IMG/VR virus record: IMGVR_UViG_3300043446_003193
Location: 1 to 64,000 of that record
Length of the DNA stretch: 64,000 bases
Source of the DNA: a virus
Strand: one strand, 5' to 3'
Shown: in pieces, positions 13,803 through 20,424 of the stretch
Layout: the number at the start of each line of letters is the position of its first letter
Position numbering within the stretch: the first letter of the stretch is position 1
Notes under the pieces: generated by a model
Database searches by the model: none
The model's input: only the letters and a program-made list of their open reading frames with translations
Told to the model about the DNA's origin: nothing
Program-made: the position numbers and the translations under genes

Positions 13803-13959
13803 CTGAAAGGGAAGGAGTTGAACCTTCAAAGGGAGATTCGGAAAGTAACACAATGCTTGCAAGCTGGTGGTCAACCCCATATTACTTTTCTATTTCTTTA
13901 TCCCCGCCCACGAGACGAGTGGGTGTGTCTGCCGTGCTTAAGCTTTTCACCACCTTTCA
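13803..13959 (-). ncRNA. aberrant ~157 nt tRNA-like element: acceptor pairing TGAAAGG/CCTTTCA and T-arm GAAGG-TTCAACT-CCTTC, oversized body
   Basis: rc ends ...GAAGGTTCAACTCCTTCCCTTTCAGCA with matching TGAAAGG at the 5' side; internal hairpin CCCACTCGTCTCGTGGG; no canonical anticodon arm found by eye. Confidence 0.3.
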
Positions 13960-13965
13960 ATTTTG

Positions 13966-14053
13966 CGGAGAGTCAGGGATTTGAACCCCAGATACCTTTC
14001 GGGTATGCCAATTTTCAAGATTGGTGCGATAAACCAGACTCTGCCAACTCTCC
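13966..14053 (-). tRNA. tRNA-Ser(TGA), class II with long variable arm
   Basis: rc: GGAGAGT...CACCAATCTTGAAAATTGG...GGGGTTCAAATCCCTGACTCTCCG; anticodon loop CTTGAAA. Confidence 0.8.
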
Positions 14054-14058
14054 TAATA

Positions 14059-14328
14059 CTAATAGATATGTGTTTCTTCGTTTCTGAAGTCTTTCGTATC
14101 TATTTCCATTTTATTTTGTCTTATTCTAGCTTCTTCTGCTCTTTTGACCATTCTTATCCAAGTTATAGATGCGTCAACAGGTGCCAAAACCCATGCCATC
14201 ATTAATACCATAATGGCATCTAATTCAGGAGATTGCCCAGTTGGATCAGGAGAATATCGTTTCTTATAAGTTTTAAATAACTGATAAAAACAATAAATAA
14301 CACAAAGTACATAATAAGTAACTAACAT
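14059..14328 (-). CDS. small membrane protein (89 aa)
   Basis: ORF track; hydrophobic N-terminus. Confidence 0.4.
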   Translation of the reverse strand: MLVTYYVLCVIYCFYQLFKTYKKRYSPDPTGQSPELDAIMVLMMAWVLAPVDASITWIRMVKRAEEARIRQNKMEIDTKDFRNEETHIY

Positions 14329-14560
14329 AACTTTTATTTTTATTTTTAAAATGAGTTTGTGAGGAATGAATCCAATTAAAAAAGGTTATCCAAATTTCAA
14401 AGAGGTTTGAGTTTATTGAAATAGCTGACAAGAGACCCTAATATTATTGAAGTTTGTTAATAATTCATTTATCTTATTCGTTCATCCGCTTGGTTGCTCA
14501 CAAGTAGTATTGCAAGAATAAACTAATCAATCAGTTTCAAACCCCACTCACTCAATATTT

Positions 14561-14989
14561 TTATATTTGTGTGTTTGCATTGTGAATATCCAATTCGTTT
14601 TGCAACTCTTCAATTCTTTCACTTAACACATCCACTTTGTTTTGAATATCCACCACATTCAATTCCACTTCTTTTACCGAAATAACACTTCCATATCTTT
14701 CAGCCACTTTACCTTCTTCGGTTGGAACTTTCTTTAATTCCTTTACCAATCCTTTCAATTCTGCTAATTCAAATATTTTAGCATATACCGGTTGATTTGC
14801 TTTATGGATTTTTGCTTTCAACTCAACTAACTCCAATTGAATCGTTTCAATTACCGTCAATGTAACGGACATTGAATATCTACGTGGGTTTCCTTCTTCA
14901 ATTGAGTTATACTTTTTCAAAATCTCATATTGAGCTTTCAAATCAGTAACCAATTTGTTTTTTTGTTTTAATGCTTGTTTTACATTCAT
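14561..14989 (-). CDS. coiled-coil protein (142 aa)
   Basis: Heptad-rich K/E/L sequence; promoter motif at 15011..15055 upstream. Confidence 0.5.
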   Translation of the reverse strand: MNVKQALKQKNKLVTDLKAQYEILKKYNSIEEGNPRRYSMSVTLTVIETIQLELVELKAKIHKANQPVYAKIFELAELKGLVKELKKVPTEEGKVAERYGSVISVKEVELNVVDIQNKVDVLSERIEELQNELDIHNANTQI

Positions 14990-15010
14990 TTTTTTAGGTT
15001 TTAATATTTT

Positions 15011-15055
15011 AAATATACAAATAATTTTTCAAATTACCAAATAAAAATAAGCAGG
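15011..15055 (-). promoter_or_regulatory. promoter: TTTG, 20 nt spacer, TATATTTA
   Basis: rc reads TTTGGTAATTTGAAAAATTATTTGTATATTTA about 25 nt upstream of the ATG at 14989. Confidence 0.5.
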
Positions 15056-15132
15056 TGTGGAGTCACCTACTTATTTTAGTGAATGAGAAACATCTGAATC
15101 TCTTTGTGGCTGTATCACCAAAGCCCATTCGG

Positions 15133-15239
15133 TGCCAGAGGAGGGTCTGGTTACCCACACGGTGTCCATTTCGGATTCACCACCCACCTAGGAAGGGAAC
15201 GTCTAATAGTTGTACACACTATCATTCCGCCACTCTGGC
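15133..15239 (-). ncRNA. degenerate tRNA-like element: 5' GCCAGAGTGGCGGAATGATAG..., 3' ...CCTCTGGCA, aberrant interior
   Basis: The 5' end resembles a class II tRNA acceptor/D-arm and the 3' CTCTGGC pairs with it, but no canonical anticodon or T arm is found. Confidence 0.3.
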
Positions 15240-15243
15240 ATAT

Positions 15244-15331
15244 GTGCCCCGAGCAGGATTTGAACCTGCACCCGTATTTTCGCCGGACAGCATTTTAAGT
15301 GCTGCGAGTCTACCAATTTCTCCATCGGGGC
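15244..15331 (-). tRNA. tRNA-Leu(TAA), class II
   Basis: rc: GCCCCGATGGAGAAATTGGTAGACTCGCAGCACTTAAAATGCTGTCCGGCGAAAATACGGGTGCAGGTTCAAATCCTGCTCGGGGCA. Confidence 0.85.
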
Positions 15332-15336
15332 AAACT

Positions 15337-18401: not shown

Positions 18402-18461
18402 AATATTCTTTATTATAAATATATTTGATTAACATTTTAAGTTAATCATTTATAGTTTTTG

Positions 18462-18542
18462 TGGGAGCAGAAGGACTTGAACCTACGAACTCAATGAGGG
18501 CGGATTTACAGTCCGCTGCAATTGCCACTATGCGATGCTCCC
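18462..18542 (-). tRNA. tRNA-Tyr(GTA), class II
   Basis: rc: GGGAGCATCGCATAGTGGCAATTGCAGCGGACTGTAAATCCGCCCTCATTGAGTTCGTAGGTTCAAGTCCTTCTGCTCCCA. Confidence 0.85.
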
Positions 18543-18974
18543 AAAACAAAAAACCCCAACTTAATTAAAAGTCAGGGTTTTCCATAAATTATTTAAAATA
18601 GACGTTCCTAACTTTACATACGAATACCACCCCAAATCTGATTCGGTGTACTACAAAGTGTATGTAATGTTAAGTTTTTCATTTTTATTTTTTTTTAAGT
18701 AATTCAATTTCAAAATACGCCATCCAAGTCATGCTCTGGTTATTATCAGCCTCATCAAATTACTTTGTACACAAGCAGAGTTTAGAGGGAGGCGGTAACT
18801 CTTTGTAGTGTACTGCTACTAATCCGGCAATCTTTTATCGTCTCTGATTGCATTTTTATTGTGAAAATCCTCCCTAAAACACTTATTACCAATTTTATTA
18901 TATCGTTCTATCTTTTAGGTCATTTAAACGAACCGACTGTTGAATAAGAAACAGCCAAAAGGTTGACCACGAAA

Positions 18975-19047
18975 GAGCGAATGTGGGAATTGAACCCTAT
19001 CTTCCACCCCGTTAAGAGTGGTGTGCTTCCGTTACACTATATTCACT
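18975..19047 (-). ncRNA. tRNA-like gene with probable 8 nt anticodon loop (CTTAACGG) and weak T-stem: candidate suppressor/frameshift tRNA or pseudogene
   Basis: rc: AGTGAATATAGTGTAACGGAAGCACACCACTCTTAACGGGGTGGAAGATAGGGTTCAATTCCCACATTCGCTC. Acceptor AGTGAAT/ATTCGCT pairs 7/7 (one G-U); D-arm paralogous to the Arg(ACG)/Gln tRNAs. Confidence 0.4.
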
Positions 19048-19954
19048 TAAAATGAGTGAGATTACCTCATTGGGAGTACCAACTTTAGAAAGATTATTTG
19101 TTTCCTTTCCTATCCACTACCTTTTGAGTAGTACCGATACAATGTGGATGATTTGAGACTATCAGTCTTTGAGTTACGTCTTACTCTCTTTATACTCCGC
19201 TTCTTCAAATCTGCCGACCTGATTAAACCTTGCGGGTTTAGAAGTTTTTCCAAAGAATCACAGACCTCTTGCGGAGGTATCGTGGCAAGGAACAGCTCCC
19301 TACTATGTACACACCTTTCGTCCGTAACTGGCAAACACTTATGCTTTTATTTAAATTGAATAATCAAATCCGCATTTGATAAAAGGGTTGGTTTGTAGAT
19401 GGGTTCAGGTAGCGGTTTGCCAACCAGCTCCCTCAACTTTTGGCCGAGAGAATACTGAACTACCCGATGTGTTATCGTCAACACCATTTTTCAAGTCATC
19501 TTCATTAATAGGGATTGGTGTCCCACATTAAAGGTTAGTAACAACACCACTTGTACACCAACATACCTTACGTCCTTTCGGATAGCTTGGTTTTAAGACC
19601 ACTCTTAAATTGAATACCGCAATAGTGTAAAGTGATTAGCCTTACATTTCTTACAGGTATTCTATGGGTTATTCTTATTGTTCTTCCGAACTCAACCGAA
19701 GTATCTACTTACCCCGGTTATTCAAACTCTTCCGATATAGTGTTACCCTTTCGTACAAAGCTCAAATAATATCCCACTTGCATACTTAAGTTATTCTCTC
19801 CTTACGGGGAGAGTAACCGCAGATTGTGTAAACCTAACAATCCACTTTATCCTACTTTCGTAGTTTATTTGACGACCATATGCGGCCGTTGTTTACTATG
19901 TAGAAAAATCTACTATGTAAAATATTTTCAATCTTTTAAAGAACTATTCGTTTT

Positions 19955-19995
19955 AATAAATATAACAATAATTTTTTTTATTACCAAATATTTTT
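19955..19995 (-). promoter_or_regulatory. promoter (copy 1 of 4 in tandem): TTTG, 20 nt spacer, TATATTTA
   Basis: rc reads TTTGGTAATAAAAAAAATTATTGTTATATTTATT. Confidence 0.45.
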
Positions 19996-20060
19996 AAAAC
20001 TTTTTTTGTAAACTTGATAACGAGTATCTTTCATCACCTATTGTTTCTCATTTACTTATG

Positions 20061-20092
20061 TAATATACGATAATTTTTTTAAACTACCAAAT
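20061..20092 (-). promoter_or_regulatory. promoter (tandem copy 2)
   Basis: rc reads TTTGGTAGTTTAAAAAAATTATCGTATATTAC. Confidence 0.5.
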
Positions 20093-20202
20093 ATATTTTC
20101 AAAAAACTTTTAAGATGTTTGGTATCCGGCTTTCTTCCCTATTGGATAGGTCACTCAATCGGTTTTATTATTTGATGGCTTCAACCAATCATCTTAAATG
20201 TA

Positions 20203-20232
20203 AGATACGATAATTTTTTCAAACTACCAAAT
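20203..20232 (-). promoter_or_regulatory. promoter (tandem copy 3)
   Basis: rc reads TTTGGTAGTTTGAAAAAATTATCGTATCTTAC. Confidence 0.5.
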
Positions 20233-20313
20233 CTTTTTTATTTTTTTGTTGAACATTTTCGGCTGTGTTTACTTACACCATTTAATACTTCCTACTTCTG
20301 AACAACTTTGTAA

Positions 20314-20343
20314 AGATACGAAAACTTTTTCAAATTTCCAAAT
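20314..20343 (-). promoter_or_regulatory. promoter (tandem copy 4), immediately downstream of initiator tRNA
   Basis: rc reads TTTGGAAATTTGAAAAAGTTTTCGTATCTTT. Confidence 0.5.
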
Positions 20344-20350
20344 CTTTTTT

Positions 20351-20424
20351 GTTGCGTGGGTGGGACTTGAACCCACGACCTTCAGGTTATGAGCCTGACG
20401 AGCTACCTCTGCTACTACCACGCG
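20351..20424 (-). tRNA. initiator-type tRNA-Met(CAT) with C1:A72 mismatch
   Basis: rc: CGCGTGGTAGTAGCAGAGGTAGCTCGTCAGGCTCATAACCTGAAGGTCGTGGGTTCAAGTCCCACCCACGCAA, near-collinear with E. coli tRNA-fMet (CGCGGGG...CTCATAACCCGAAGGTCG...CCCCGCAA). Confidence 0.8.

What the first reader, a model, noticed from the sequence alone, without database searches (positions are those of the whole stretch)
13803..20424. Large tRNA array (at least 18 tRNAs including initiator tRNA) with embedded HNH endonucleases
I read 18 canonical tRNAs on the minus strand (Ser x2, Leu x2, Arg x2, Asp, Thr, Glu, Cys, Trp, Ile, Pro, Gln, Gly, Asn, Tyr, fMet-like) within about 6.6 kb. Three HNH/homing-type endonuclease genes sit in or next to the array; one (18045..18401) overlaps tRNA-Asn by about 7 nt. 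The initiator shows the bacterial C1:A72 hallmark. No Ala, Val, Lys, Phe, His or elongator Met were seen in the window. An array this size is typical of jumbo phages that rebuild translation capacity or counter host anticodon nucleases.
Basis: seen in the sequence. Interest (0 to 1): 0.65.

Follow-up and report, generated by a model that had tools for sequence, protein, structure and literature searches.

The report
Phage tRNA island with GOLLD RNA

Summary
Confirmed. The Met tRNA has the C1:A72 initiator mismatch.

- a full-length GOLLD RNA (19053-19889; Rfam 267 bits; 66% identical along its whole length to env-38, the GOLLD whose cryo-EM structure is a 14-mer cage);
- a tmRNA (20430-20832);
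- a tRNA-Gly-derived pseudo-tRNA 6 nt after GOLLD;
- a divergent tRNA-His(GUG) at 17300-17376.

Only two of the "three HNH" genes are HNH. The third (15819-16403) has a PD-(D/E)XK restriction-endonuclease fold.

About 85 IMG/VR loci carry the same GOLLD type. The closest ones (contigs up to 238 kb) share the order tmRNA, initiator tRNA, small RNAs, GOLLD, tRNA-like, tRNA array. Relatives without HNH genes show that the nuclease genes sit in lineage-specific insertions that also change tRNA content.

The tRNAs read the phage's preferred A/U-ending codons.

tRNA arrays with GOLLD and HNH genes, and phage tmRNAs, are all published. This is a new member of a known kind. The one notable extra is a recurrent link between GOLLD and initiator tRNA.

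The parts
20881..20910 (-). Promoter-like site TTTGGTA-N17-TATATT upstream of the tmRNA
   Evidence: The motif occurs 16 times on the minus strand and 0 times on the plus strand of the window. The generic sigma-70 scan also lists this site.
20430..20832 (-). tmRNA (one-piece), tag DEMSTMTYNDLMAFVGADYAVAA
   Evidence: Rfam RF00023 at 79.6 bits against a gathering score of 47, covering model positions 1-374. ARAGORN also calls it. Relatives keep the same gene with a conserved 23-24-aa tag at the same place.
20351..20424 (-). Initiator-type tRNA-Met(CAU)
   Evidence: Called by ARAGORN and Rfam at 40 bits. It has a C1:A72 mismatch. The anticodon stem is A29:U41, G30:C40, G31:C39. Read by eye from the sequence, it is close to E. 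coli tRNAfMet.
19959..20342 (-). Four tandem promoter-like sites (20342-20313, 20231-20202, 20091-20062, 19988-19959) with short conserved RNAs between them
   Evidence: Regex scan. Alignment with relatives shows the same promoter-plus-element units.
20112..20200 (-). Conserved small structured RNA 'A' (GGTTGAAGCC...TAATAAAACCGA...AAAGCCGGATACC inside a closing stem)
   Evidence: Found in 17 related loci, always 208-630 nt upstream of GOLLD on the same strand. RNAalifold finds compensatory changes in 8 of 12 pairs. No Rfam match at E<=1.
20008..20060 (-). Conserved small element 'B' (core ATAGGYGATGAAAGATACTCGG in a hairpin)
   Evidence: The core is found 99-427 nt upstream of GOLLD on the same strand in 25 of 85 GOLLD loci. 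No Rfam match.
19053..19889 (-). GOLLD RNA, env-38 type, 5' and 3' domains; a conserved leader hairpin extends to about 19950
   Evidence: Rfam RF02032 covers 19053-19467 at 267.3 bits against a gathering score of 150, E 4e-75, model positions 1-416 of 416. The full 833-nt env-38 sequence aligns from 19889 to about 19053 at 66% identity (5' domain 70%, 3' domain 63%). It is 90% identical to L035 over 914 nt.
18975..19046 (-). tRNA-Gly(UCC)-derived tRNA-like element 6 nt after GOLLD, with an abnormal anticodon loop (6 or 8 nt)
   Evidence: ARAGORN calls it 'tRNA-???' and Rfam tRNA gives 31.6 bits. Relatives L016, L084 and L003 have an intact tRNA-Gly(tcc) at the same spot. The cloverleaf is kept, with 9 of 20 pairs covarying.
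18699..18763 (-). Conserved 65-nt hairpin motif downstream of GOLLD
   Evidence: Found in 12 loci, always 86-352 nt after the GOLLD end. It has a 12-bp outer stem with 4 covarying pairs and a nearly invariant interior. No Rfam match.
18614..18682 (-). Micro-ORF (22 aa here; 31-45 aa, read by eye, in two relatives), followed by an intrinsic terminator at about 18544-18579
   Evidence: Alignment of the region downstream of GOLLD in 8 loci. The start codon and the first residues are conserved, and the terminator stem covaries.
18461..18542 (-). tRNA-Tyr(GUA)
   Evidence: It is absent from the nearest HNH-free relatives L086 and L087, so it belongs to the insertion that carries the HNH gene.
18045..18401 (-). 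HNH endonuclease (118 aa); its stop codon lies inside tRNA-Asn
   Evidence: PHROG 2255 at E 1.9e-28. No homologue in the 80 related GOLLD loci. Homologues in two unrelated viral contigs also sit inside tRNA arrays, one of them between tRNA-Asn and tRNA-Tyr.
17122..18054 (-). Dense tRNA block: Asn, Gly, Gln, Pro, Ile, Trp, Arg-acg, Cys, (His-like), Ser-gct, Leu-tag; most spacers are 4-9 nt
17300..17376 (-). Divergent tRNA-His(GUG) homologue: G-1:C73, encoded CCA, and a non-canonical T-loop GGCAGUA
   Evidence: 81% identical over its full length to the tRNA-His that ARAGORN calls in L087. The minimum-energy fold is a cloverleaf. Compared with L086 there are two compensatory double changes in the anticodon stem. 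ARAGORN and Rfam do not call it.
16417..17073 (-). tRNAs Glu, Thr, Asp and Arg-tct; the promoter-like site at 17116-17087 lies just upstream of this span
15819..16403 (-). Gene for a PD-(D/E)XK restriction-endonuclease-fold protein (194 aa)
15337..15777 (-). HNH endonuclease (146 aa from the ATG); it ends 5 nt before tRNA-Leu(UAA)
   Evidence: PHROG 10822 at E 7e-36; Pfam HNH at 24 bits against a cut-off of 21.4. A homologue in L058 also ends 6 nt before a tRNA-Leu(taa).
15244..15331 (-). tRNA-Leu(UAA)
   Evidence: It lies inside the 16417-15243 segment that is absent from L086 and L087.
14561..14989 (-). 142-aa ORF of unknown function with its own promoter-like site (15041-15012). It occupies the place where relatives have a second CAU tRNA.
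   Evidence: There is only a weak NCBIfam DIP1984 hit.
14059..14328 (-). Small conserved ORF (89 aa) inside the array
   Evidence: tblastn gives 37-47% identity to L035, L052 and L051 at the same position, before tRNA-Ser(tga).
13965..14053 (-). tRNA-Ser(UGA), the last gene of the island

Best explanation
The region from 13965 to about 20910 on the minus strand is the translation-RNA island of a large (probably over 200 kb), AT-rich (32% GC), uncultured aquatic phage.

In the order of transcription it contains:
1. a promoter;
2. a one-piece tmRNA;
3. an initiator-type tRNA-Met;
4. four tandem promoters with two short conserved structured RNAs between them;
5. an 833-nt GOLLD RNA of the env-38 type;
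6. a tRNA-Gly-derived tRNA-like element 6 nt after GOLLD;
7. a structured spacer, a micro-ORF and a terminator;
8. 17 elongator tRNAs plus a divergent tRNA-His.

Shown here: the identity of every RNA; the conservation of this order in sister phages; and that the nuclease genes lie in lineage-specific insertions.

Inferred: the island is transcribed from host-type promoters (TTTGGTA-N17-TATATT) into multi-gene precursors. Host RNase P and 3'-end-processing nucleases cut these, and CCA is added afterwards, because none of the 18 canonical tRNAs encodes CCA. The tRNA or tRNA-like element just after GOLLD probably serves as the RNase P signal that sets the 3' end of GOLLD. The elongator tRNAs mostly carry U34 or G34 and read the A/U-ending codons that dominate the phage's genes. 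They therefore keep phage translation going when host tRNAs are ill-matched, depleted or cleaved. The initiator tRNA and the tmRNA extend the same logic to initiation and to ribosome rescue.

The two HNH genes are free-standing selfish homing endonucleases that settle next to conserved tRNA genes. The gain and loss of their insertions shuffles the tRNA content: Tyr and Leu-UAA were gained here, while Val, Phe, Lys, Ala and the second CAU tRNA are absent.

The role of GOLLD is unknown. By homology to env-38 it should assemble into a multimeric RNA cage.
For: - RNA identities.
- Conserved order tmRNA, initiator tRNA, GOLLD, tRNA array in L035, L052, L065, L050, L016/51/62 and L086 (L087 by sequence matches; L085 has the tmRNA about 3.6 kb further upstream).
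- All 84 IMG/VR loci recovered with a GOLLD 5'-domain motif or the downstream 65-nt motif carry an env-38-type GOLLD, most of them full-length (64 of the first 80).
- Promoter motif found 16 times on the minus strand and never on the plus strand, 7 of them inside the island.
- Spacers of 4-9 nt and no encoded CCA.
- The phage tRNAs read the top codon for every covered amino acid except Gly, and about 60% of all codons.
- The nuclease genes are insertions relative to L086 and L087 ([Tyr+HNH] 18625-18054; [PD-(D/E)XK+HNH+Leu-taa] 16417-15243; ORF142 in place of a CAU tRNA).
- The nuclease genes are nearly absent from the 80 related loci: the 18045-18401 HNH and the PD-(D/E)XK gene have no homologue there, and the 15337-15777 HNH has one only in L058 and L067.
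- HNH homologues elsewhere sit beside the same kinds of tRNA.
- A tRNA or tRNA-like element starts within 30 nt after GOLLD in roughly half of the 28 GOLLD clusters, and its cloverleaf covaries.
- Phage origin and size.
- Literature: GOLLD lies in phage tRNA islands and env-38 lies downstream of a Met-tRNA (PMC12286853). tRNA arrays that hold both GOLLD and an HNH gene are described in PMC6582537. tmRNAs occur in huge phages (PMC7162821).
Against: - There are no expression data. Promoters, processing sites and transcript ends are all inferred from sequence.
- The host is unknown and the hints conflict. Two TonB-receptor-like genes with CarboxypepD_reg domains point to Bacteroidota. The A29:U41 initiator variant is typical of alphaproteobacteria (PMC5389676). 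The only GOLLD-motif hit in a cellular assembly is a 1.6-kb contig in a Cyanobium MAG. Codon compensation against the host therefore could not be tested.
- No SmpB gene was found in the window by a single-sequence search, so the tmRNA would depend on host SmpB or on a gene elsewhere in the genome.
- The function of GOLLD is unknown, so 'translation island' may be too narrow a label for it.
Confidence: 0.8

Rival explanations
1. The main job of the array is counter-defence. The phage supplies replacement or nuclease-resistant tRNAs, including an initiator, because the host cuts its own tRNAs with anticodon nucleases or with VapC-type toxins that cleave tRNAfMet during infection. Nearby RNA-repair-like genes would heal the cut ends.
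For: The set includes the classic nuclease targets Asn, Asp, Tyr, (His), Arg and the initiator Met. A cREC_REC cyclic-phosphate-processing domain gene and a metallophosphoesterase gene lie 2 kb downstream at 10854-12108. Published work shows that phage tRNAs can escape tRNA-targeting defences through anticodon-loop changes (PMC10264068). The initiator tRNAs of this whole phage group share unusual features, namely A29:U41 and an extra D-stem nucleotide (and the sequence itself).
Against: tRNA-Lys, the best-known target, is absent here. No host tRNA sequences are available, so no anticodon-loop difference could be shown. No RNA ligase was found in the parts of the window that were scanned. This reading is compatible with codon supply rather than exclusive of it.
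Confidence: 0.3
2. The island is a cellular or plasmid-borne mobile tRNA array, like the horizontally acquired tRNA arrays of Mycobacterium that carry GOLLD and HNH, or a decayed prophage. It would not be part of an active large phage.
For: Arrays with GOLLD and an HNH gene do occur in bacterial chromosomes (PMC6582537). The window holds cellular-looking genes, namely two TonB-dependent-receptor-like proteins, glycosyltransferases and an SPFH protein. No capsid or terminase gene was identified in the window.
Against: All relatives come from IMG/VR viral contigs of up to 321 kb. The window has an endolysin (PHROG E 1e-69), a virion-protein family hit, an exonuclease and phage-type auxiliary genes (heme oxygenase, bilin reductase, CobS-like), all on one strand and with a single repeated promoter type. 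The GOLLD 5'-domain motif was found in only one 1.6-kb contig among 185,579 species genomes.
Confidence: 0.07
3. Much of the array is decaying cargo. The tRNA genes are being eroded and shuffled by selfish nucleases and contribute little, so the present set is an accident of insertions and deletions.
For: tRNA content varies greatly between close relatives, from 15 to more than 25 genes. This window lacks five or six tRNAs that its sister phages have. One tRNA-Gly copy has a broken anticodon loop and the tRNA-His has lost its canonical T-loop. ORFs have replaced tRNAs at some positions.
Against: The 18 canonical tRNAs score 34-74 bits with intact cloverleaves. Even the odd ones keep their stems through compensatory changes. 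The anticodons match the phage's preferred codons in 14 of the 15 amino-acid families covered. The gene order is conserved across phages whose GOLLDs differ by more than 30%.
Confidence: 0.1

Closest known systems
GOLLD RNA env-38 (Rfam RF02032; cryo-EM 14-mer nanocage; Kretsch et al. 2025, PMC12286853)
   Same: Homologous along the whole length, in both the 5' 'cap' domain and the 3' 'ring' domain: 66% identity and Rfam 267 bits. Both are environmental and phage-borne, both lie downstream of a Met-tRNA, and both sit in a tRNA island.
   Different: It is a different sequence (34% divergent) and has no tRNA inside the linker. Here the full neighbourhood is visible: a tmRNA upstream, two conserved small RNAs and tandem promoters in front, and a tRNA-Gly-derived element at the 3' end. 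Multimer formation was not tested.
Mycobacterium tRNA arrays that carry GOLLD and an HNH endonuclease (Behra et al. 2019, PMC6582537; Morgado et al. 2020, cited there and in PMC12286853)
   Same: The same three-part constellation: a large tRNA array (about 30 genes), a GOLLD gene inside it with tRNAs on both sides and a pseudo-tRNA associated with it, and an HNH homing endonuclease gene within the cluster. Those arrays are interpreted as derived from phages.
   Different: Those arrays sit in GC-rich actinobacterial chromosomes, and their pseudo-tRNA or tRNA-Phe lies inside GOLLD. This island is in an AT-rich large phage, its tRNA-like element lies just after GOLLD, and a tmRNA plus an initiator tRNA head the island.
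tRNA gene regions of large phages (huge phages of Al-Shayeb et al. 2020, PMC7162821; the tRNA regions of T4 and T5, from my own knowledge)
   Same: Many tRNAs are packed with few-nucleotide spacers, CCA is often not encoded, tmRNAs occur in huge phages, and free-standing homing endonucleases lie within the tRNA region (SegB in T4 and HNH enzymes in T5, from memory and not checked here).
   Different: None that is essential. The array here is moderate in size (18-19 tRNAs covering 16-17 amino acids) and lacks Lys, Phe, Val, Ala and elongator Met.
Bacterial initiator tRNAfMet, including the natural A29:U41 variant of alphaproteobacteria and some mycoplasmas (PMC5389676)
   Same: CAU anticodon, C1:A72 mismatch, G30:C40 and G31:C39 kept, A11:U24 present, and overall sequence close to E. 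coli tRNAfMet.
   Different: The first of the three G:C pairs is A:U. The D-stem has an extra U that several related phages share. The gene is encoded by a phage. Formylation and use in the P site were not tested.

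Membership tests
tRNA (Rfam RF00005) array | Cloverleaf genes that score above the curated threshold, clustered on one strand | tested here: met
   Eighteen genes score 34-74 bits against a gathering score of 29. ARAGORN calls all 18, and they all lie on the minus strand within 6.5 kb.
GOLLD RNA (RF02032) | Conserved 3' domain that matches the covariance model above its gathering score | tested here: met
   267.3 bits against 150, E 4e-75, model positions 1-416 of 416, not truncated.
GOLLD RNA (RF02032) | Variable 5' domain that brings the whole RNA to about 800 nt | tested here: met
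   The region 19889-19468 aligns to residues 1-420 of env-38 at 70% identity. The same 5' domain is present in the related IMG/VR GOLLD loci, 64 of the first 80 being full-length.
GOLLD RNA (RF02032) | Phage or prophage context next to tRNA genes | tested here: met
   tRNAs lie on both sides and the window carries phage genes. The literature context is in PMC12286853.
GOLLD RNA (RF02032) | Assembly into a homo-oligomeric cage | not testable with these tools
   This needs cryo-EM or native gels of the transcript.
tmRNA (RF00023) | tRNA-like domain plus an internal tag reading frame, scoring above threshold | tested here: met
   79.6 bits against 47. ARAGORN finds a tag frame ending in YAVAA and a stop codon. 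The tag is conserved in frame in at least 10 relatives.
tmRNA (RF00023) | An SmpB partner is available | tested here: not met
   phmmer with E. coli SmpB against all ORFs of the window found nothing. This was a single-sequence search of 64 kb only. Host SmpB or a gene elsewhere in the genome could serve.
Bacterial initiator tRNA | CAU anticodon and a mismatch at 1:72 | tested here: met
   C1:A72, with the remaining 6 acceptor-stem pairs intact.
Bacterial initiator tRNA | Three consecutive G:C pairs at 29:41, 30:40 and 31:39 | tested here: not met
   The pairs are A29:U41, G30:C40 and G31:C39. The essential G30:C40 is kept. The '1st AU' variant is natural in alphaproteobacteria and some mycoplasmas and still works as an initiator (PMC5389676).
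Bacterial initiator tRNA | Formylation by Fmt and use in the P site | not testable with these tools
   This needs biochemistry.
HNH homing endonuclease | HNH (beta-beta-alpha-metal) catalytic motif | tested here: met
   For 15337-15777: PHROG 10822 at E 7e-36 and Pfam HNH at 24.0 bits against a cut-off of 21.4. For 18045-18401: PHROG 2255 at E 2e-28, with HH...CxxCH visible in the sequence, but no Pfam hit.
HNH homing endonuclease | Sporadic presence or absence at a fixed site among related genomes | tested here: met
   The nearest relatives L086 and L087 lack both insertions. Among the 80 related GOLLD loci the 18045-18401 HNH has no homologue, and the 15337-15777 HNH has homologues only in L058 and L067. 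Homologues recur beside the same tRNA types in unrelated phages.
HNH homing endonuclease | Site-specific cleavage of the allele that lacks the HNH gene | not testable with these tools
   This needs enzyme assays or co-infection crosses.
PD-(D/E)XK restriction-endonuclease fold (gene 15819-16403) | Core alpha-beta-beta-beta-alpha-beta fold | tested here: met
PD-(D/E)XK restriction-endonuclease fold (gene 15819-16403) | Catalytic D...(D/E)XK motif | tested here: inconclusive
   D55, K68 and G70 are invariant and Q66 and N67 nearly invariant, giving QNK in place of ExK. The spacing resembles that of DpnI as I recall it, which I did not check. Activity is unknown. Homologues in other phages sit next to a putative SAM methyltransferase or a DNA polymerase, not next to tRNAs.
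Jumbo phage (genome over 200 kb) | Genome length over 200 kb | tested here: inconclusive
   The window is only 64 kb. An identical 424-aa window protein lies on a contig in the 0.2-1 Mb class. Sister contigs are 237 and 238 kb.

The most novel reading that the evidence does not exclude
In this GOLLD subfamily the cage-forming RNA may be one part of a conserved functional unit. The other parts would be the phage's own initiator tRNA, two small RNAs that have not been described (A and B) and, in this clade, a tmRNA. An initiator-type tRNA lies 130-450 nt upstream or 14-28 nt downstream of GOLLD in about 17 of 28 sequence clusters, even though the arrangement has changed between clusters. If this linkage is functional, GOLLD would act on translation initiation or ribosome rescue. 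For example, it could store, deliver or regulate the phage initiator tRNA, with the tRNA at its 3' end serving both as a processing handle and as cargo. That would give the first concrete and testable function for GOLLD.
Probability: 0.15. Interest if true: 0.8.

Novelty: new member of a known kind. Interest (0 to 1): 0.45.

Why it matters
On its own, the tRNA array is an ordinary feature of large phages.

Its value is as a well-resolved natural context for an env-38-type GOLLD, the RNA whose cage structure is solved but whose function is unknown. This window and its roughly 85 relatives show three things:
- GOLLD is embedded in a conserved set of translation RNAs.
- It is repeatedly tied to an initiator-type tRNA.
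- It is flanked by conserved small RNAs that are not in Rfam.

These observations give experimenters defined transcripts and partners to test.

The comparison with relatives that lack HNH genes also illustrates how homing endonucleases remodel the tRNA repertoire of a phage.

Tried and rejected
- No close relative in GenBank phages. A megablast of the island found only matches of about 60 to 90 nt, mostly to tRNA genes. A more sensitive blastn of GOLLD hit only two uncultured huge phages, weakly.
- The window itself is not in IMG/VR. An exact 44-mer gave no match.
- Rfam at E<=1 gave no family for small RNAs A and B, the 65-nt motif or the 430-nt region downstream of GOLLD. I considered a hammerhead ribozyme because of the 'TGATGAG' in the 65-nt motif and dropped the idea for that reason.
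- Cassette co-transfer was not supported. I tested whether tRNA-Leu(UAA) travelled together with the neighbouring HNH gene by comparing it with the Leu(UAA) next to the HNH homologue in L058. It is only 53% identical to that one, against 75-76% to its closer relatives. Only the junction recurs.
- The 15819-16403 gene as a third homing endonuclease: the fold is a nuclease fold, but homologues in other phages lie beside a methyltransferase or a DNA polymerase. I do not call it a homing enzyme.
- The 223-nt gap between tRNA-Glu and tRNA-Thr folds no better than shuffled sequence (z -0.97).
- A blastn search with 393 tRNAs from relatives against the masked window found only the His-like gene.
- Host inference gave conflicting hints: Bacteroidota, alphaproteobacteria and Cyanobium (PMC5389676). 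I left it open.
- I considered reading the 8-nt anticodon-loop version of the tRNA-Gly-like element as a +1 frameshift suppressor. I regard this as unlikely, because the acceptor stem has a mismatch and has lost the C2:G71 pair, which I recall (not checked) is a GlyRS identity element.

Full report
OBSERVATION

ARAGORN on the whole window RNA genes, all on the minus strand between 13965 and 20832. They are 18 canonical tRNAs, one 'tRNA-???' and a tmRNA. Rfam's tRNA model scores all of them above its gathering threshold, at 34-74 bits against 29. Cys appears only with the more permissive filters. The Met tRNA has a C1:A72 mismatch above six intact acceptor pairs. No tRNA is called elsewhere in the 64 kb.

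Small corrections are needed. The array starts at 13965, not 13803. The HNH ORF 18045-18401 overlaps tRNA-Asn by 10 nt, and its TAG stop codon is formed by tRNA positions 8-10.

Rfam also reports a GOLLD RNA at 19053-19467 (267 bits, gathering score 150, full model) and a tmRNA at 20430-20832 (79.6 bits, gathering score 47). The Rfam GOLLD model covers only the conserved 3' domain. I took the 833-nt sequence of GOLLD env-38 from the supplement of Kretsch et al. 2025 (PMC12286853). Env-38 is the RNA whose cryo-EM structure is a 14-mer cage. It aligns along its whole length to window 19889-19053 at 66% identity, with 70% in the 5' domain and 63% in the 3' domain. The 1.8 kb of ORF-free DNA inside the 'array' is therefore mostly a full-length GOLLD gene.

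The 'tRNA-???' at 18975-19046 starts 6 nt after GOLLD. It scores 31.6 bits with the tRNA model and has an abnormal anticodon loop. The loop is 6 nt as ARAGORN draws it, or 8 nt with a better stem.

The 82-nt 'gap' between tRNA-Cys and tRNA-Ser(gct) is 81% identical over its full length to a tRNA-His(GUG) that ARAGORN calls in a relative. Its minimum-energy fold is a cloverleaf with G-1:C73, the loop UUGUGGA and an encoded CCA. Compared with another relative it shows two compensatory double substitutions in the anticodon stem. Its T-loop (GGCAGUA) and D-loop are non-canonical, which is why ARAGORN and Rfam miss it. 'No His' is therefore probably wrong.

THE NUCLEASE GENES

Two genes are HNH endonucleases: 15337-15777 (PHROG 10822, E 7e-36; Pfam HNH just above its cut-off) and 18045-18401 (PHROG 2255, E 2e-28).

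RELATIVES

All of them carry an env-38-type GOLLD and 64 are full-length. A second motif added four more loci. Contigs reach 321 kb, and the closest ones (L035, L050) are 237-238 kb.

The closest relatives share the window's order: tmRNA with a conserved 23-24-aa tag ending in (A/M)DYAVAA, then an initiator-type tRNA-Met, then 250-500 nt of spacer, then GOLLD, then 300-660 nt of spacer, then a tRNA array. Their arrays contain, at matching places, the Val, Phe, Lys, His, Ala and second CAU tRNAs that the window lacks. The 'missing isoacceptors' are therefore lineage-specific absences.

L086 and L087 have the same reduced order as the window but no nuclease genes. Against them the window has three indels:
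- 18625-18054: tRNA-Tyr plus an HNH gene;
- 16417-15243: the PD-(D/E)XK gene, an HNH gene and tRNA-Leu-UAA;
- 15042-14326: ORF142 in place of a CAU tRNA.

Among the 80 related GOLLD loci, the 18045-18401 HNH, the PD-(D/E)XK gene and ORF142 have no homologue. The 15337-15777 HNH has homologues only in L058 and L067. Homologues of the 18045-18401 HNH in two unrelated viral contigs also lie inside tRNA arrays, one of them between tRNA-Asn and tRNA-Tyr as here. A homologue of the other HNH in L058 ends 6 nt before a tRNA-Leu(UAA), as here. That tRNA is not closely related to the window's copy, so only the junction recurs, not a shared cassette. This is the pattern expected of free-standing homing endonucleases that use conserved tRNA genes as landing sites.

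ANATOMY AROUND GOLLD

A motif TTTGGTA-N17-TATATT occurs 16 times on the minus strand and never on the plus strand. One copy precedes the tmRNA. Four lie in tandem between the initiator tRNA and GOLLD. One lies inside the array (17116) and one precedes ORF142 (15041).

Between the tandem copies lie two short elements that are conserved in relatives. Element A (20112-20200) has a closing stem with compensatory changes in 8 of 12 pairs. It occurs in 17 loci, always 208-630 nt upstream of GOLLD. Element B (20008-20060) has the core ATAGGYGATGAAAGATACTCGG. It occurs 99-427 nt upstream of GOLLD in 25 of 85 loci, including distant clusters.

Downstream of GOLLD, the tRNA-like element corresponds to an intact tRNA-Gly(UCC) in L016, L084 and L003, and to variants with a 23-24-nt D-loop insertion in L050 and L087. 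Across seven versions the cloverleaf is kept, with 9 of 20 pairs covarying. After it come a structured stretch with a 65-nt hairpin motif (18699-18763; 12 loci), a micro-ORF and a conserved terminator just before tRNA-Tyr. None of these small elements matches Rfam at E<=1.

LINK BETWEEN GOLLD AND THE INITIATOR tRNA

The full-length GOLLDs fall into 28 clusters at 90% identity. About 19 of these have a CAU tRNA within 600 nt, and about 17 of those tRNAs carry initiator hallmarks: a 1:72 mismatch and/or G30G31:C39C40. The tRNA lies either 130-450 nt upstream or 14-28 nt downstream of GOLLD. The CAU tRNAs deeper in the arrays are of the elongator or Ile2 type (G1:C72). The clusters are related, so this is not an independent count. 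Still, the linkage has survived rearrangement.

Kretsch et al. note only that env-38 lies 'downstream of Met-tRNA'. The papers I could read do not discuss the initiator identity. These phage initiators have A29:U41 in place of the first G:C pair. That variant is natural in alphaproteobacteria and some mycoplasmas and still functions (PMC5389676).

HOW IT LIKELY WORKS

The window is 31.8% GC. For every amino acid that has a phage tRNA, that tRNA reads the most frequent codon, except for Gly. Simple wobble covers about 60% of all codons.

Spacers in the dense block are 4-9 nt, and none of the 18 canonical tRNAs encodes CCA. That implies multi-gene precursors cut by host RNase P and 3'-end-processing nucleases, with CCA added afterwards. 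These steps are inferred from established tRNA biology, not shown here.

A tRNA or tRNA-like element starts within 30 nt of the GOLLD 3' end in roughly half of the clusters. This suggests that RNase P cleavage sets the GOLLD 3' end, which is again an inference.

Phage origin rests on an endolysin (PHROG 181, E 1e-69), a virion-protein family hit, an exonuclease, CobS-like, heme-oxygenase and bilin-reductase auxiliary genes, the single coding strand and the IMG/VR relatives. An identical window protein lies on a contig of 0.2-1 Mb.

The host is unresolved. Two TonB-receptor-like genes with CarboxypepD_reg domains suggest Bacteroidota. The initiator variant suggests alphaproteobacteria. The only hit of the GOLLD motif in 185,579 species genomes is a 1.6-kb contig in a Cyanobium MAG.

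No SmpB gene was found in the window.

COMPARISON WITH WHAT IS KNOWN

GOLLD in phage tRNA islands is described in PMC12286853. tRNA arrays that contain GOLLD, a pseudo-tRNA and an HNH endonuclease are described in mycobacteria (PMC6582537). tmRNAs in huge phages are described in PMC7162821. Free-standing homing endonucleases in phage tRNA regions (T4 SegB, the T5 HNH enzymes) are known to me from memory. Every component, and the tRNA, GOLLD and HNH constellation as a whole, is therefore of a known kind.

What I did not find described is the conserved head of the island (tmRNA plus initiator tRNA), the two upstream small RNAs, the 65-nt downstream motif, and the generality of the link between GOLLD and initiator tRNA.

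VERDICT

This is a new member of a known kind and of moderate interest, mainly as a rich natural context for an RNA whose structure is solved and whose function is not.

Noticed in passing
window 19053-19889 (-): A full-length GOLLD RNA of the env-38 type lies inside the reported 'array'.
   Followed up: yes
window 20430-20832 (-): A one-piece tmRNA sits just past the reported end. Its unusually long tag (DEMSTMTYNDLMAFVGADYAVAA) is conserved in frame in sister phages. No SmpB gene was found in the window.
   Followed up: partly
window 17300-17376 (-): An uncalled, divergent tRNA-His(GUG). It has a cloverleaf, G-1:C73 and an encoded CCA, but a non-canonical T-loop (GGCAGUA) and a D-loop without GG. 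L086 has the same kind, and the two differ by compensatory changes in the anticodon stem.
   Followed up: yes
window 18975-19046 (-); L016, L084, L050, L087: The element just after GOLLD is a tRNA-Gly(UCC) paralogue. It is intact in some relatives, has a broken anticodon loop here, and in L050 and L087 carries a 23-24-nt insertion in the D-loop. It may serve as the signal for processing the GOLLD 3' end.
   Followed up: partly
window 20112-20200 and 20008-20060 (-): Two short conserved structured elements, each behind its own promoter-like site, lie between the initiator tRNA and GOLLD. Element A occurs in 17 related loci and element B in 25, always upstream of GOLLD on the same strand. Neither is in Rfam.
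   Followed up: partly
window 18699-18763 (-): A 65-nt hairpin motif with a nearly invariant interior (GAGCATGACTTGGATGGCGTATTTTGA) and a covarying outer stem. It is found only downstream of GOLLD, in 12 loci, and is not in Rfam.
   Followed up: partly
85 GOLLD loci (L001-L080, L084-L087, L089): In about 17 of 28 sequence clusters of env-38-type GOLLD, an initiator-type tRNA (1:72 mismatch; A29:U41, G30:C40, G31:C39) lies 130-450 nt upstream or 14-28 nt downstream of GOLLD. Other CAU tRNAs in the same arrays are of the elongator type.
   Followed up: partly
window, minus strand: 63163, 56386, 48094, 47820, 46267, 42625, 20910, 20342, 20231, 20091, 19988, 17116, 15041, 12619, 9314, 6817: A repeated promoter-like motif TTTGGTA-N17-TATATT occurs 16 times on the coding strand and never on the other. 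It fits sigma-70, and also the Bacteroidota TTTG...TAnnTTTG pattern as I recall it.
   Followed up: partly
window 10854-12108 (-): Adjacent genes for a cREC_REC domain (cyclic-phosphate processing receiver, Pfam E 4e-20) and a metallophosphoesterase. These may be an RNA-end-healing pair sitting next to the tRNA island.
   Followed up: no
window 12676-13789 (-): Overlapping genes for a heme oxygenase and a ferredoxin-dependent bilin reductase lie directly downstream of the island. This is a pigment-pathway auxiliary pair known from aquatic phages.
   Followed up: no
window 30120-32372 and 42686-45967 (-): Two large genes that look like TonB-dependent outer-membrane receptors (Plug, beta-barrel and CarboxypepD_reg domains). 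This is unusual cargo for a phage and hints at a Bacteroidota host.
   Followed up: no
L091-L093 (homologues of window 15819-16403): In other phages the PD-(D/E)XK-fold gene overlaps a 337-338-aa gene with a weak SAM-methyltransferase (PF03602) hit. This suggests a restriction-modification-like pair. In the window the partner gene is an HNH gene instead.
   Followed up: partly
window 14059-14328 (-): A small 89-aa ORF between the last two tRNAs is conserved at the same place in L035, L052 and L051 (37-47% identity). Its function is unknown.
   Followed up: no
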